Positions 33,001-48,000 of a stretch of DNA of 64,000 bases are shown piece after piece. Numbering within the stretch: position 1 is the first letter of the stretch; every line of letters begins with the position of its first letter. Origin of the DNA: Mizuhopecten yessoensis (taxonomy: Eukaryota); the NCBI RefSeq assembly GCF_002113885.1, contig NW_018408834.1, positions 107,592 through 171,591 of the forward strand, given 5' to 3'. Position numbers: made by a program.

Positions 33001-36000
33001 ATAATCCAAATTTAGGAAATGAGGAGTACACAGAAATAAAAGACTAATGGATGATGAGATTATCTTCTGAAACAGAAGTGTGGACGGACGGATGGAACAC
33101 CATGATCACTATAGGGCACCCTCACCTCTAACGTGGGAGCCCGAATTAAAAACAAAAATTATTTTAGATTTTTATTTTTTTTAATGTACATACATGGCAG
33201 AGAATTAAACACTGGATGGGTACAGCATCTGAAAAGAGAAGAAAACCATCATCAGTAACATTACAGGTATTTAACATTATGTTCTAGAACAAGTTATTTA
33301 AAATACTGACCAAATCTTTCTATTGATTAAGTATTGATATATGTGAATATTTCTGAGACCTGTTTGAGCATTTAACATAAACATTCAACACAATTGTAAA
33401 CATTTTTCATAAAGTAATTGTAGGTGCTTGCATATTAGCCACCTAATAGGGTAATTATTAGAATGGGAGTATTTTTTCAACATTTGTCACTTAATAAATT
33501 GCAACTAAGAACCGAGTTCTGATTGAATATTTATAATCTTGGAACAGTCTGAAACATTCTAATAGATCTATTGAATGTAAGCAGTCTTTGTTGATATGCA
33601 GTATCAAACACTTTTCTACTAAAGCACACCAATAAATTTAAAATTATAATCTTGAACTACTTTCACTTTTTTGGGGAAATGTACCCGTGACTTTGGACTT
33701 GGAAAGCTGCGTGTCAAGATATTTTTAAATCCAAAAAGGAAAGTTTCAGAATTTCAATAAATTAGATGATTTCAAAAGAATTCGGGGAAATTTACCACTA
33801 TGTCCAAAGGGAGTATGGCCAAAATAAGACTACAAAACAAACTAGCAGTCTATGTGCTTCAACCGTTAAAACTTAAAACTTTGAACAATCATTCTTATTC
33901 CACATTAGTGTATACTTACAATTCTGATCCTGCGACCCATGGCAGTGGCTGGCAAATTCTTCCTGAACTTGGCTCTTACAGATCCGCTGTTACCGTGTGG
34001 TCGTGTGACCTTCCCCCAGACAACACGGATACGGCTAGCATTTTCATGACCGGGACATGCAGTCTTCCTGCAAAATCAACAATAATGTGGCATAAAATCT
34101 AGAAGGTTATCACTGTGACACACCATGTTATTCCATCCGAATAAGTTAGGGTAATATATTATAAATAAAAGTTTTTTTATAGAAGAAAATATGTATCTAT
34201 TTGTGAATGTGATAAAAGATCCTTTATTGTCAGGCTTACAAAATGTTATTTTCGGATAGTGGATTATTATATCCGTGTCTACTAATACTAACTGCAGGCA
34301 AGTAACTGGGGAAAAACCTTGAACACCCCTGACCGGTATGGGTATTTGTTACAAATGGTTTGTAGACGACTGTTTAGTTCCAAGCTTGGCTTTAAACTCT
34401 TAACATCTTCTATATCCACTTTCGGGTAAAACTTTGCAATCTAATATATTCACTATTAGATTTACCTACAAATATTTTGCGTATGTATATACTATTAGAT
34501 TTACCTACTTACAAGTACTTTGCGATCTAATATGTATACACTATTAGATTCACCTACAAGTAAGCATCCTACAAATCTATGTTCTAGTATGTGACTGTAC
34601 CTAAGACATAAATATTTGCAGAGCTCAACAAAAATCTGAATGCAATTTGTAACTGTATTACATTAACTTTAATAACCTCTACCATAAATGGATCTGGATG
34701 ATTCCATTACGGTCTACAGTGTTGAAAGGGTTAAGCAATCCAAAACAAGAGCATGGAAGATTTTATGATATATTTCTTTAAAATGATAAATATATTGATC
34801 ATTGGTTACTGTTCAGTAAATATTAACCAATGATTGATCATAAAAATCTCAAACGATTCCCACCACTACAGTTAAGGTAATGAATCGGACATGTTTTACA
34901 AACCTCTTTGCCTTGTACACATATGCACATCTCTTTCCAAGGTAAAACCTGGTATCCTTGAGGTTAGTCACACCTTCAATCTTCAGAAGAGCTGTGTTTT
35001 CATGCTGATTTCTTAAACCTCGCTTGAAGCCAGTGAACACAGCTTTGGAGTAAAGCCTGGAAGATAATCATTGTAAGTTAACCCAAGCGAGATTTGTTTA
35101 TTCAGGAAAGGAAAAATGCTTGGTCAGAGTAAGATTGGAACATGGGACTAGGGCTTCAACGGAAAGAAAAAATGCCACAGAGATAATCTTGTGTGCTTAT
35201 CCAAACTGAAACTGGGTAACCATGTTTTTTTGTGCAAGGAAATATTAACAGCAACGGAATTTAATTTTCGATCAAAATAGAGGCATCACAATCCACTGTA
35301 CCATGATTATTTATGTTCGATTTGATTCACAATGCATTTTTCCGGATTTTCGGTGCGTTACAATCTGGATATTAGTGTATGCCACTTCGGCCAAAATGTC
35401 TGCGAGAAGTTCTATTTCATTGACTGATCTCTAAACCCTCAACCAATAGGCTGCGAGGAAGCATTTTTTCGAAGAATTCATAACAAAATGGCAGACTGCC
35501 GAAAGGAATTGAAAATTTGTGATGCTCCAGCAAGCTTCAAATCAAAAGTGGAAACACTGCAGGTTTCCGTGTATCAACGGCTTATATATCTCATTTTTTA
35601 TAATTTAAAATAAAGGTGTATCGAATCGAAATAATCGAATCGTGGTACAAATATCGAGATACGTATCGAATCGTGGCTAAAGTGTATCGTGACAGCTCTA
35701 GATAAAAATATCATTACTTAATTCATGAAATGCTGATCAATATGCCTTGTGTATACTTTGTTCAACAGAATGTCAGTCGATATCATACTTCTATTCAAAG
35801 TTTATTGTTTACATGCAATCAATAGTAAAACAACTATACTGATCACAAGTGTTTTCGAGGTCTGTCAAATAGCAATCATGAGCGACATTTCTGCTCGGGA
35901 AAATAAAAAATATTGACCTACATTTTGGGACAGTTTTGGGTCTTGTACATGTATCTTGCACTTAATGCAGACTCAGGGGTTTGTTACAAATGTATGAAAT

Positions 36001-45000: not shown

Positions 45001-48000
45001 TCCTACCTAAAGACTCACCAAGAGGTAAGCACAATATACCCCCCCCCCCCTACACACACACACACACACACACACACTCACTCACACACACACCTACACC
45101 TCCAACAACACCCTGCCCCCCGCCCCCTCCCAATTACCCTCATATACTGGGACCCCCTAAGTTACATTGTTAAAACATTTTAAACTGCAACCATTTGTCC
45201 AGCAATATACTGGTGTTAGAAAAGCTGTTTGGTGATCAGAGGAGAATTATTTCAAGGAACTGTTATAATTTAAAAAATATGGTAGCAGTTATGAAACTTT
45301 AGAAGATGTAGGAAATTTTAATGGGAGTAAAGTTCTTGGATTAAGATAATTTTTTCATCAGTATATAATTGGGTTTCTTGAAAGCTTCTGGTGATATGTT
45401 CAGGCATGTACACCTACAGGAAAGTTTTCGAAGTAAAGGTCAAGCACACTTGTCCCTGTTATCTCCAACACTTTTGAACCTGTCTCAAGTTTAGCTCACT
45501 TTTGATTTCCAATTATATACCGATACTTAACATGCTGCTGAGACTGAAGCTTTCATTCGTATTTCTCTCACTGTGGAACAGGAACTAGAGAAGAAGGTGG
45601 ATTATTGGCTGACCAAGTATGACAAAGACGTGGAGGCCAAACAGCACGAGCTGGACGTCCTCAAGGCCAGTAAGGCTAAAGACCTTGATCGCCTACAGGA
45701 GCTGACCAAGCAGTATAAGGAATATGAACAGGTTGTTGTGGAGGACCGTATAGAGAAGGAGAAGGCTCGTCGTAAGGCTGACCAGGAGGGCATCGAACTC
45801 AAGGCTGCCATCAGGGTAAGCATCTCATTGGCTCATTTCTTAAAATGGAAGTATTCAACCAACCCAATTAAAAAAGAATCATTTAGTCCTATAAATTATT
45901 AAAAGGTATAAGGTATGACATTACCATTTAAGAGGTCATGTTTTGGTAACATTCTACTCTCAGCAGTCAGTGTAGTGGCCATCGCTTGGAGAAAAACACA
46001 TGAGCAGTGAAGTCCCTTAAATATATCATCCTTCTTTCCAAGTAATGTGACTATATTGAATTATGAGATTACTGAAATACTTGGATAATTTTGTATGCAG
46101 TGAAAGAATAAAAGGTCATCAGTATCAAAGCATGACCTCTTGCATCGTGTTTTTAGATACCTTAGAGTGTTGTTAAATGATCCAAGAAATTACCCATTAC
46201 ACAGTAATTTCCTTGTAATATCACAACAAATGTACACAGATAACTAAGGTTTCAGAGGTCTCTGGAACTGTAACCCTTCTTCTCGCATCATCAATATGCA
46301 TGGGCATCTCCAGATTGAATGTTGTTGATATTTGATACTTTGTTTGTTTGGCTCAGGACTTCCTATCAGGTTCTATATGCATAATGACACAGTCAAGTAA
46401 AATTAAATCGCTAATATTTCTTTTAATCATTGAAATTAAGACTTATAATTAATTTGAACAAATACAGTTTTCCATGTGGTCACCTGTTCTCAGTTTCAAA
46501 GGACTGAAGTGGAAATCTGTAGAAAGAAAAATTCCCTTTTTCGTCTAGTATTAACAGTGTCTCTCCTTGGATATATATTTAGTGGTCACTGTGGCAAAAA
46601 CAAACAGGTAAATCAAGCAATGGCAATGGAATGGTTCCATTAGAATTATGCACAATTTTTATTTATTATACGCCCGTCAAATTTGACGGGAGTATTATGG
46701 TATGGCATTGTCCGTCCGTCCATTTTTCAAAGAATCTCTTTGAAACTTGGTATACATTATAATCATGATATGAAGTTGGGTCTCCCTCAAAAGAATTTTG
46801 ATTCAACAATTTTTGCAAAAGTTATTGCCCTTTGTTCATTTCAGTATTTGATTTTTTTATCCAGAAATTTCTCCTACATTTTTATAGCATGTCAGCTAAC
46901 TACTCTTTGAATGATGCAGATCTTATTTCAATGTAAGAAAGTATTTAACACTATATGGCATTCGACGGGCGTATATTGTTCTGCCCCCCCGGTACTCTTG
47001 TTTTTTAAATATCATGTGCAAAACTTTTGTGTTCAAACAAAACAATTCCCTATAAGTCAATACCTGAAATGATCTTGGTCACCAAATTATTAGTTACAAA
47101 TGTTATACAGGTAGATCTTTCTATATTACAGGTACAAGCCTGGTGGAGGGGCGTCATGGTCCGGAAAGGTTTCGGACCCTACAGTAAAAAGAAGAAGGGA
47201 AAGAAAGGCAAGAAAGGAAAGAAGGGCAAAAAGAAGAAGTAGACTGTTGACCTCAGCATTTGGCTGGACTTATACTATTGTTGTGTCCGTGTGTTTGATC
47301 AAATGTGACCACACTTCTCTGTGATCCAGAAATGACTGAAGAACTAGTATACTATATAAATCACTCAAGACACTAAAATTGTGCTGAAGACAATATTCTG
47401 TTGCTGGGTTAGCAACCTCTGTGGTCTAGATATGACAGAGGAAACTTATGGATATCTCCCATTTACCATCAACCAGTCAGACATTACAAAAATTGTATTG
47501 ATGAAATTTTTGAATTATTTAGGTATGAAAATACAAAAAATAAACATTACCGTATTTCAATGTGAAGATCTTGTATTCAATCTTGGTTATAGACAATTTT
47601 AAAACAAAGTTGTACATATATATAATTTAGATCTCACTAGACAAAAAAAAAATGTATAATATGTGTGTGTATTTAATGTATTTCTTTCATTAAATGCCCT
47701 GTTACCATAAATTGCATGTTGTTTTTGTTTATCATACCCCCTACAAACAAAGTTTGAGGGGTATATAGGAATCACCCTGTTCTCCTAAACTGTTTACAGG
47801 ATTTGTTTATTTGATTTTTAATTTGACATGGTTAAAAGTACATGGTAAAACAGCCCTCAGCATATGGAAATGCCTATGAAGAAAAGAATTTGCTATTCAG
47901 TTATTTTTCCTGGAGTTATGGCCCTTGAAACGTGTGCTTCCTCCTTAATTAAGGATCCCTGCACCACTGCCACACACTGTAACGAAGTGTTGGAAACTAT

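What the first reader, a model, noticed from the sequence alone, without database searches (positions are those of the whole stretch)
33205..47242. RPL35A-IQCG opposite-strand linkage resembles the human locus
Seen: RPL35A (-) and IQCG (+) are head-to-head, with first-exon donors only about 150 bp apart. Known from recall: human RPL35A and IQCG are adjacent or overlapping on opposite strands at 3q29. Inference: a gene pair retained since the protostome-deuterostome ancestor, plausibly held together by the shared promoter.
Basis: partly seen in the sequence, partly recalled or inferred. Interest (0 to 1): 0.65.

Follow-up and report, generated by a model that had tools for sequence, protein, structure and literature searches.

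The report
Ancient RPL35A–IQCG head-to-head gene pair
A scallop-like genome carries the ribosomal protein gene RPL35A and the cilium gene IQCG back to back, a neighbourhood also seen in several other animal phyla and in humans, so it is a real but fairly ordinary case of very old gene linkage.

Summary
RPL35A/eL33 (minus strand, 4 coding exons, 36321 to 33205) matches the Mizuhopecten yessoensis L35a-like protein at 100% over all 123 residues. IQCG/DRC9 (plus strand, 7 coding exons, 42126 to 47242) matches DRC9 exon by exon, far better than the paralogue DRC10.

The start codons are 5.8 kb apart. The "150 bp" figure rests on two non-coding first exons inferred from sequence signals only:
- a pyrimidine tract plus donor at 36921-36892 on the minus strand;
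- a 9/9 consensus donor at 37040 on the plus strand, 148 bp away.

These signals are plausible and locally unique, but there is no transcript evidence.

Ancient linkage is well supported by proxy. In 12 of 15 species where both proteins turned up, they share a contig length and/or near-consecutive accessions. These species cover amphioxus, an acorn worm, sea stars, crinoids, a brachiopod, bivalves and a gastropod. Papers report a 100 bp gap in a blood clam, and human RPL35A lying inside IQCG intron 1.

"Held together by a shared promoter" is untested. The human gene model does not fit it simply. This looks like a new member of a known kind, conserved 5'-5' microsyntenic pairs. Interest is modest.

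The parts
33171..33176 (-). AATAAA poly(A) signal candidate about 30 nt after the RPL35A stop codon
   Evidence: Read from the sequence. Inferred, no transcript evidence.
33205..33228 (-). RPL35A last coding exon (MLYPSSV plus TAA stop at 33205-33207)
   Evidence: 100% match to residues 117-123 of the M. yessoensis L35a-like protein P0073. AG acceptor.
33920..34067 (-). RPL35A coding exon 3 of 4
   Evidence: Pfam PF01247, 8.1e-18. Matches P0073 residues 67-116. AG/GT splice sites.
34904..35056 (-). RPL35A coding exon 2 of 4
   Evidence: Pfam PF01247, 9.8e-21. 100% identical to P0073. AG/GT splice sites.
36275..36332 (-). RPL35A ATG exon: 11 nt of leader, ATG at 36321, 16 codons, donor GAG|GTATGT
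   Evidence: Candidate found by scan. 100% match to P0073 residues 1-16. AG acceptor before 36332.
36893..36921 (-). Predicted non-coding RPL35A exon 1: pyrimidine tract CTTCCTTTTTC (36921-36911), then donor CAAG|GTGCTG (GT at 36892-36891)
   Evidence: The only mixed C/T pyrimidine run of 8 or more (the other is a poly-T run), and the only AGGT[AG] donor, on the minus strand in 36300-37700. Inferred, no transcript evidence.
36893..37039 (.). Putative shared promoter interval (147 bp): ETS-like inverted pair CCGGAACTTCCG (36938-36949) and 14-nt perfect palindrome CACATGCGCATGTG (36953-36966)
   Evidence: Sequence. 8 CpG, o/e 1.41, against 0.57 for the window and 0.19 for the 600 bp before the IQCG ATG exon. 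Motif names are recalled.
36922..37039 (+). Predicted non-coding IQCG exon 1. The start is unknown within this span; the end is at donor CAG|GTGAGT (GT at 37040-37041)
   Evidence: One of only 6 AGGTRAGT sites in the window on both strands. The only donor at 8/9 or better on the plus strand between 36900 and 42117. Inferred.
37040..42117 (+). Putative IQCG intron 1 (5.1 kb), repeat-rich
   Evidence: Three copies of a dispersed element at 37556-39160, plus tandem repeats. CpG o/e 0.39.
42118..42245 (+). IQCG first coding exon (acceptor ttcctattccag|, ATG at 42126, 40 codons)
   Evidence: tblastn with 7 of 7 orthologues. PDB DRC9 hit at 1.9e-4. Sequence.
43089..43333 (+). IQCG coding exon 2
   Evidence: tblastn, 7 of 7 orthologues. 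DRC9 of 8glv at 1.6e-4 and of 8th8 at 6.2e-3. AG/GT splice sites.
43811..43939 (+). IQCG coding exon 3
   Evidence: tblastn, 7 of 7 orthologues. Acceptor chosen by phase and pyrimidine tract. AG/GT splice sites.
44416..44659 (+). IQCG coding exon 4
   Evidence: DRC9 at 2.4e-23 and 6.9e-19, with no other PDB hit. tblastn.
44950..45024 (+). IQCG coding exon 5 (25 codons)
   Evidence: tblastn, 7 of 7 orthologues, weak because the exon is short. AG/GT splice sites.
45543..45815 (+). IQCG coding exon 6
   Evidence: DRC9 at 1e-22 and 3.9e-22 against DRC10 at 0.034. All named hits among the 72 are DRC9/IQCG.
47132..47242 (+). IQCG last coding exon: IQ motif (VQAWWRG...), Lys/Gly-rich tail, TAG stop at 47240-47242
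   Evidence: IQCG IQ-peptide chains 4m1l_B at 1.5e-4 and 4lzx_B at 3.5e-4. Pfam IQ at 6.8e-4, 19.6 bits, against a cut-off of 20.3.

Best explanation
The window, from Yesso scallop or a near-identical pectinid, holds a divergently transcribed pair: RPL35A (ribosomal protein eL33) and IQCG (dynein regulatory complex protein 9, a motile-cilium protein).

Shown:
- both gene identities;
- opposite strands, diverging from a point near 36.9-37.0 kb;
- canonical splice sites throughout;
- the same two genes lying together in cephalochordates, a hemichordate, echinoderms, a brachiopod, bivalves and a gastropod, and, from papers, in a blood clam and in humans.

The linkage therefore dates at least to the bilaterian ancestor.

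Inferred: each gene has a short non-coding first exon, and these lie back to back in a CpG-enriched interval of about 150 bp that acts as a compact bidirectional promoter.

Most likely mechanism of retention (inferred): the two 5' ends are so closely interleaved that almost any breakpoint separating the genes would destroy one promoter. Slowly rearranging lineages therefore keep the pair. In vertebrates, IQCG later gained a more distal first exon, which turned the arrangement into RPL35A nested in IQCG intron 1.

My confidence differs by sub-claim: gene identities and ancient linkage about 0.9, back-to-back first exons about 0.65, and the retention mechanism about 0.4.
For: Gene identity:
- for RPL35A. 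The 372-nt CDS gives 123 aa, 100% identical to P0073.
- for IQCG. The matches are colinear along DRC9, and the 1197-nt CDS is divisible by 3.

Upstream exons are needed:
- Both ATG exons begin at AG acceptors 11 nt and 8 nt before the ATG.

First-exon signals:
- Unique pyrimidine tract plus donor on the minus strand.
- Unique 9/9 donor on the plus strand at 37040.
- CpG o/e of 1.41 in 36893-37039, against 0.19 just upstream of the IQCG ATG exon.

Linkage elsewhere:
- Consecutive accessions or locus tags in 8 species: B. lanceolatum, B. floridae, Saccoglossus, Antedon, Patiria, Sinanodonta, Potamilus and Batillaria.
- Two apart in B. belcheri.

Papers:
- Anadara granosa has Iqcg 100 bp from Rpl35a (PMC11452991, passage).
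- Human RPL35A is embedded in IQCG intron 1 on the opposite strand (PMC13480657, passages).
Against: - There is no transcript, CAGE or cross-species DNA evidence for either first exon. The start codons are 5.8 kb apart.
- CpG enrichment is modest. Outside the minisatellite in the first 1.8 kb, 32 of the 200-bp windows reach 11 or more CpG (1270 windows scanned in all), and one such patch lies inside RPL35A intron 2.
- An X-box-like site that would have tied the interval to a ciliary gene is not above chance: 50 matches against 55.4 expected.
- Linkage in other species is read from contig lengths and accession order, not coordinates. Distance and orientation are unknown there.
- In 3 of 15 species (Bugula, Clavelina, Candidula) the two genes are on contigs of different length.
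- In the human annotation the IQCG first exon is not at the RPL35A promoter, so a shared promoter cannot be the universal constraint.
Confidence: 0.7

Rival explanations
1. The linkage is ancient but passive. It survives only because these lineages rearrange slowly and the permissible breakpoint target between the genes is tiny. There is no co-regulation and no selective value in the neighbourhood itself.
For: - The lineages that keep the pair are slowly evolving marine invertebrates. The 3 of 15 without shared contigs include a tunicate and a bryozoan.
- The two products have unrelated roles, ribosome versus axoneme.
- No cilium-specific promoter motif stood out.
Against: - The main text of Irimia et al. 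2012 (PMC3514665, passages) reports that conserved pairs are enriched for 5'-5' orientation and for intergenic regions under 1 kb. The authors read this as regulatory constraint.
- Passive and selective retention predict the same pattern in the data available here, so this rival is not excluded.
Confidence: 0.35
2. The scallop IQCG transcription start site is not beside RPL35A, and the 37040 donor is a coincidence. IQCG starts either somewhere in 37040-42117 or, as in humans, beyond the 3' end of RPL35A, so that RPL35A is nested in an IQCG intron.
For: - The first exon is non-coding and unverified.
- Human RPL35A is nested in IQCG intron 1 (PMC13480657).
- Donors at 8/9 or better occur 19 times on the plus strand of the window, so roughly 0.04 would be expected in any given 150 bp.
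Against: - 37040 is the only donor at 8/9 or better in the 5.2 kb between RPL35A and the ATG exon.
- The 600 bp before the ATG exon are AT-rich with 2 CpG and end in a strong acceptor.
- In another bivalve the gene models are 100 bp apart (PMC11452991).
- No AGGTRAGT donor lies on the plus strand left of RPL35A between 30740 and 33205.
Confidence: 0.25
3. Independent (convergent) juxtaposition of RPL35A and IQCG in molluscs and vertebrates.
For: None found. Three lineages lack the shared contig.
Confidence: 0.02

Closest known systems
Human RPL35A / IQCG locus at 3q29
   Same: The same two orthologous genes on opposite strands. The RPL35A 5' end points away from the body of IQCG (PMC13480657 passages; PMC8094096 passages name IQCG and LMLN as the nearest neighbours).
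   Different: - In humans RPL35A is fully embedded in the first intron of IQCG.
- Here the predicted IQCG first exon lies on the near side of RPL35A, so the genes do not overlap.
- The window holds no invadolysin (LMLN)-like or LRCH3-like neighbour. Its neighbours are a calpain gene and a B-box/NHL gene.
Conserved ancestral microsyntenic pairs (CAMPs) of the 5'-5' class, e.g. HSPE1-HSPD1 (Irimia et al. 2012, PMC3514665)
   Same: A non-paralogous neighbouring pair kept across phyla, divergently oriented, with a very short (predicted) intergenic distance.
   Different: - HSPE1-HSPD1 are functionally coupled and co-expressed. RPL35A and IQCG have unrelated functions.
- RPL35A, IQCG and 'ribosomal' each occur 0 times in that paper's main text.
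- Its list of pairs is in supplements that I could not open.
Anadara granosa Rpl35a-Iqcg (PMC11452991)
   Same: Another bivalve with the two genes 100 bp apart, as the authors state in one passage.
   Different: - That paper treats the pair as candidate loci for a blood trait, not as conserved synteny across phyla.
- It does not state the orientation in the passage I saw.

Membership tests
Ribosomal protein eL33 / RPL35A | Ribosomal_L35Ae domain (PF01247) | tested here: met
   Two exons score 74.2 and 64.8 bits against a cut-off of 27.
Ribosomal protein eL33 / RPL35A | A functional, intron-containing copy rather than a processed pseudogene | tested here: met
   - Four coding exons with AG/GT borders and an open frame of 372 nt.
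- 100% identical to the annotated M. yessoensis protein P0073.
DRC9 / IQCG | Colinear similarity to DRC9 along the protein, better than to the paralogue DRC10/IQCD | tested here: met
   - Exons map to DRC9 residues about 59-90, 208-291, 305-395 and 391-428.
- The remaining exon searched maps to algal and ciliate DRC9.
- DRC10 appears only once, at 0.034 against 1e-22 for DRC9.
DRC9 / IQCG | C-terminal IQ calmodulin-binding motif | tested here: inconclusive
   - Pfam IQ scores 19.6 bits, just under the 20.3 cut-off.
- The exon does align to the crystallised IQCG IQ peptide at 1.5e-4.
DRC9 / IQCG | Whole-protein DRC9 domain (PF27661, precomputed for the orthologues) | not tested
   This would need the joined protein, and that step was left out. 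No exon hit such a model in the local Pfam copy.
Conserved ancestral microsyntenic pair | Neighbours in several phyla on both sides of the protostome-deuterostome split | tested here: met
   12 of 15 species by contig-length and/or accession proxies, plus passages from papers on a blood clam and on humans.
Conserved ancestral microsyntenic pair | Conserved relative orientation | not testable with these tools
   No eukaryotic genome coordinates are on hand. Only the window and the human description can be compared.
Bidirectional-promoter gene pair | Opposite-strand transcription start sites less than 1 kb apart | tested here: inconclusive
   Predicted first-exon donors are 148 bp apart, but the start sites were not observed.
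Bidirectional-promoter gene pair | Co-expression or shared cis elements | not testable with these tools
   No expression data are available. Motifs in the interval are named from recall only.

The most novel reading that the evidence does not exclude
RPL35A-IQCG may be one of the oldest non-paralogous gene neighbourhoods in animals, possibly older than Bilateria. On this reading a ribosomal-protein core promoter and a ciliary-gene promoter are physically interleaved within about 150 bp, and that has kept the pair intact. The vertebrate state, with RPL35A nested inside IQCG, would then be derived: IQCG captured a distal first exon.
Probability: 0.3. Interest if true: 0.5.

Novelty: new member of a known kind. 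Interest (0 to 1): 0.35.

Why it matters
If the 150-bp interval really drives both genes, it is a compact, easily tested example of how a housekeeping promoter and a tissue-restricted ciliary gene can share regulatory space for more than 500 million years. It would also show how a head-to-head pair can turn into a nested pair. It bears on human 3q29 deletions as well, which remove RPL35A and IQCG together. As it stands, it adds one well-documented pair to the hundreds of conserved microsyntenic pairs already described as a class.

Tried and rejected
- **ORF at 35488-35562 (plus strand, MADCRKELK...).** It lies inside RPL35A intron 2 with a GT after it, and I considered it as an IQCG first exon. 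No orthologue matched there, and the orthologues' N-termini line up with the ATG at 42126, so I rejected it.
- **Other RPL35A start exons.** Several ATG-plus-donor candidates close to exon 3 (35481, 35304, 35223) were rejected once the 36321 exon matched P0073 at 100%.
- **X-box (RFX) site at 36964-36976.** It fits a recalled consensus with 2 mismatches, but the window has 50 such matches against 55.4 expected. It is not evidence.
- **Hairpin search.** The inverted-repeat search of 36700-37200 found nothing at arm length 10 or more.
- **RNA families.** Rfam found none in the window, so no recognised snoRNA lies in the RPL35A introns.
- **Extended synteny with human 3q29.** Pfam on 20 flanking ORFs found a calpain gene and a B-box/NHL gene, nothing resembling the human neighbours, and nothing at all in 47.3-64 kb.
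- **Literature.** 'IQCG' + 'microsynteny' gave 0 papers. 'DRC9' + 'RPL35A' gave 0. 'RPL35A' + 'bidirectional promoter' gave 7, none of them about this pair judging by title and abstract. 'IQCG' + 'synten' gave 3, of which only the blood clam paper is relevant.
- **Chen et al. 2014 (zebrafish synteny).** The paper is not held. I know it only from the sentence that cites it.
- **A wasted call.** My first DNA search, meant to find N runs, was mis-specified and gave nothing useful. A script then found the single N run, which I left alone.
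Full report
**What is in the window.**
The window is AT-rich eukaryotic DNA (about 36% G+C) with one N run at 3087-3153, which I left alone. The finding spans exactly two genes.

**RPL35A (minus strand).**
- Two exons hit Pfam Ribosomal_L35Ae at 9.8e-21 and 8.1e-18.
- A search with one exon returned a 123-aa '60S ribosomal protein L35a-like [Mizuhopecten yessoensis]' at 100% identity.
- A local tblastn maps that protein at 100% onto four window exons: 36321-36275, 35056-34904, 34067-33920 and 33228-33205. One apparent mismatch at an exon edge is alignment overhang into the intron.
- All borders are AG/GT and the coding length is 372 nt.
- The window is therefore Yesso scallop or something nearly identical.

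**IQCG (plus strand).**
- Seven orthologues were mapped by tblastn: six named (Mya, Dreissena, Sinanodonta, Branchiostoma, Lottia, Aplysia) and one unnamed. All seven define seven coding exons from 42126 to 47242.
- I fixed the borders by phase and splice signals. The coding length is 1197 nt, or 398 codons plus the stop.
- I searched 5 of the 7 coding exons against solved structures, exon by exon. The best named hits were always 'Dynein regulatory complex protein 9' or 'IQ domain-containing protein G', and they were colinear along the protein: 1.9e-4, 1.6e-4, 2.4e-23, 1e-22 and 1.5e-4.
- The paralogue DRC10 appears only once, at 0.034.
- Every hit in the two protein searches that carries an informative name (many carry none or only a placeholder) is DRC9/IQCG, except one called 'kinesin family protein 6/9' by its source.
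This is the orthologue.

I never built or searched the joined (spliced) proteins. As a result, three things were not done for the scallop IQCG: an exact look-up in the protein collection, the whole-protein DRC9 Pfam domain test, and any fold. No scallop IQCG protein appeared or 35 (best identity 80-81%). I cannot explain that gap.

**The '150 bp' claim.**
The two start codons are 5.8 kb apart (36321 and 42126). Both ATG exons begin immediately after good acceptors:
- for RPL35A, AG before 36332, 11 nt ahead of the ATG;
- for IQCG, ttcctattccag| before 42118, 8 nt ahead of the ATG.

Each gene therefore needs at least one upstream non-coding exon.

On the minus strand between 36300 and 37700, one tract stands out: CTTCCTTTTTC at 36921-36911. 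It is the only mixed C/T pyrimidine run of 8 or more there (the only other run is poly-T). Eighteen bases later comes the only AGGT[AG] donor in that span (GT at 36892-36891). This looks like the terminal-oligopyrimidine start typical of ribosomal protein genes; that comparison is recalled, not tested.

On the plus strand, CAG|GTGAGT at 37039|37040 is notable in two ways:
- it is one of only 6 AGGTRAGT sites in the whole window on both strands, and two of the others are the verified IQCG donor at 42244 and its duplicate;
- it is the only donor matching MAG|GTRAGT at 8/9 or better between 36900 and 42117.

The interval 36893-37039 has 8 CpG (o/e 1.41). The window averages 0.57, and the 600 bp before the IQCG ATG exon score 0.19. 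The interval also holds an ETS-like inverted pair (36938-36949) and a perfect 14-nt palindrome (36953-36966).

Three caveats apply:
- The CpG signal is modest. Outside the minisatellite in the first 1.8 kb, 32 of the 200-bp windows reach the same count (1270 windows scanned in all).
- An X-box-like site is no better than chance.
- There is no transcript evidence.

I rate the back-to-back first exons as likely (about 0.65), not shown.

**Is the linkage old?**
No eukaryotic genome collection was available, so I used two proxies from the protein tools. One is the length of the contig that carries each protein. The other is the accession number or locus tag, which in most submissions follows genome order; that assumption is mine.

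The species set is simply those that turned up for both genes. One search gave 72 hits and one search gave 46. One search listed the best 120 of 682. That makes 15 species, not counting a Branchiostoma hybrid assembly.

Consecutive numbers (8 species):

| Species | IQCG / RPL35A identifiers |
|---|---|
| B. lanceolatum | CAH1244853 / CAH1244854 |
| B. floridae | XP_035693097 / XP_035693098 |
| Saccoglossus kowalevskii | XP_002738856 / XP_002738857, on one 135,088-bp scaffold |
| Antedon mediterranea | XP_071949916 / XP_071949917 |
| Patiria miniata | XP_038049924 / XP_038049925 |
| Sinanodonta woodiana | ACJMK2_018896 / ACJMK2_018895 |
| Potamilus streckersoni | CHS0354_011396 / CHS0354_011397 |
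| Batillaria attramentaria | BaRGS_003954 / BaRGS_003955 |

Less tight, but still linked (4 species):
- B. belcheri: two apart.
- Lingula anatina: same contig, 6 and 17 apart on two scaffolds.

Contigs of different length (3 species):
- Bugula neritina
- Clavelina lepadiformis
- Candidula unifasciata

In two of these the contigs are small scaffolds, so the assemblies there may simply be fragmented.

That is 12 of 15 linked, across Chordata, Hemichordata, Echinodermata, Brachiopoda and Mollusca.

Papers add three points:
- In the blood clam Anadara granosa, Iqcg lies '100 bp downstream of Rpl35a' (PMC11452991, Discussion passage).
- The same passage cites Chen et al. 2014 for zebrafish-human synteny of the region. 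That paper is not held.

Convergence is not tenable.

**How the human locus compares.**
The topology is the same in one respect. RPL35A and the coding body of IQCG run away from each other on opposite strands. It differs in another: the annotated human IQCG first exon lies beyond the 3' end of RPL35A, so RPL35A is nested.

A simple route from one state to the other is that IQCG gained a distal first exon. My recollection, unchecked, is that the human IQCG 5' end abuts LMLN. PMC8094096 passages name LMLN and IQCG as the closest neighbours of RPL35A.

The window's other genes are a calpain (exons between 6012 and 16495) and an intronless B-box/NHL gene (29148-30740). Nothing was recognisable in 47.3-64 kb. 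Conservation is limited to the pair itself.

**Mechanism.**
The class is known. Irimia et al. 2012 (PMC3514665, passages from the introduction and the co-regulation section) describe conserved ancestral microsyntenic pairs. These are enriched for 5'-5' orientation and for intergenic distances under 1 kb, which the authors read as bidirectional-promoter constraint.

Their main text mentions neither gene. Their list of pairs is in supplements I could not open, so the pair may already be catalogued there. Four literature searches found no main-text description of this pair as conserved synteny.

My preferred reading is structural. With the two 5' ends interleaved in about 150 bp, there is almost no place for a harmless breakpoint. 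Whether the neighbourhood is also selected for co-regulation is open. A ubiquitous ribosomal gene and a motile-cilium gene are not obvious partners. A purely passive 'small target in slow genomes' model predicts the same pattern.

**Verdict.**
- The gene pair, strands and coordinates are right.
- The 150-bp spacing is a reasonable prediction.
- Ancient bilaterian linkage is strongly supported by proxies.
- The shared-promoter explanation is untested and does not carry over simply to humans.

This is a tidy new member of a known kind, of modest interest.

Noticed in passing
window 42230-42294: A 39-nt direct duplication copies the donor site of the first coding IQCG exon (AGGTGAGT at 42244 and again at 42283). 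Using the second donor would add 13 in-frame codons with no stop, so it is a possible alternative 5' splice site.
   Followed up: partly
window 37040-42117: The putative IQCG intron 1 is largely repeats: three copies of a dispersed element (37556-39160), a 60-nt unit repeated twice (39687-39808) and a 30-nt unit repeated four times (38040-38161).
   Followed up: partly
window 6012-16495 (+): A multi-exon calpain gene (Peptidase_C2 and Calpain_III hits on five ORFs). It is not a neighbour of RPL35A/IQCG in humans.
   Followed up: partly
window 29148-30740 (-): An intronless 531-aa ORF with a B-box zinc finger and an NHL repeat, a TRIM-like gene of the kind often expanded in bivalves (that last point is recalled).
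   Followed up: no
window 1-1813: A long minisatellite gives repetitive ORFs on both strands and the highest CpG counts in the window. A weak EBNA2_N Pfam hit there is a low-complexity artefact.
   Followed up: no
window 35501-35750: A CpG-rich, TCGAT-rich patch inside RPL35A intron 2, next to a plus-strand ORF (35488-35562) that I rejected as an IQCG exon. Its nature is unexplained.
   Followed up: partly
window 47192-47233: The IQCG C-terminus is a Lys/Gly-rich tail (KKKKGKKGKKGKKGKKKK) encoded by a 9-nt repeat. The crystallised IQCG peptide 4m1l_B also has a Lys-rich tail after the IQ motif.
   Followed up: no
window 36987-37004 (+): A five-codon upstream ORF (ATG...TAA) lies inside the predicted non-coding IQCG exon 1, if transcription starts upstream of it.
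   Followed up: no
protein searches: No pectinid IQCG/DRC9 protein was returned (best identity 80-81%), although RPL35A from Mizuhopecten, Pecten and Argopecten is in the collection. The scallop IQCG model may be missing, or of a length outside the range searched.
   Followed up: no
window 45052-45093: An (AC)21 microsatellite in the IQCG intron after the 25-codon exon.
   Followed up: no
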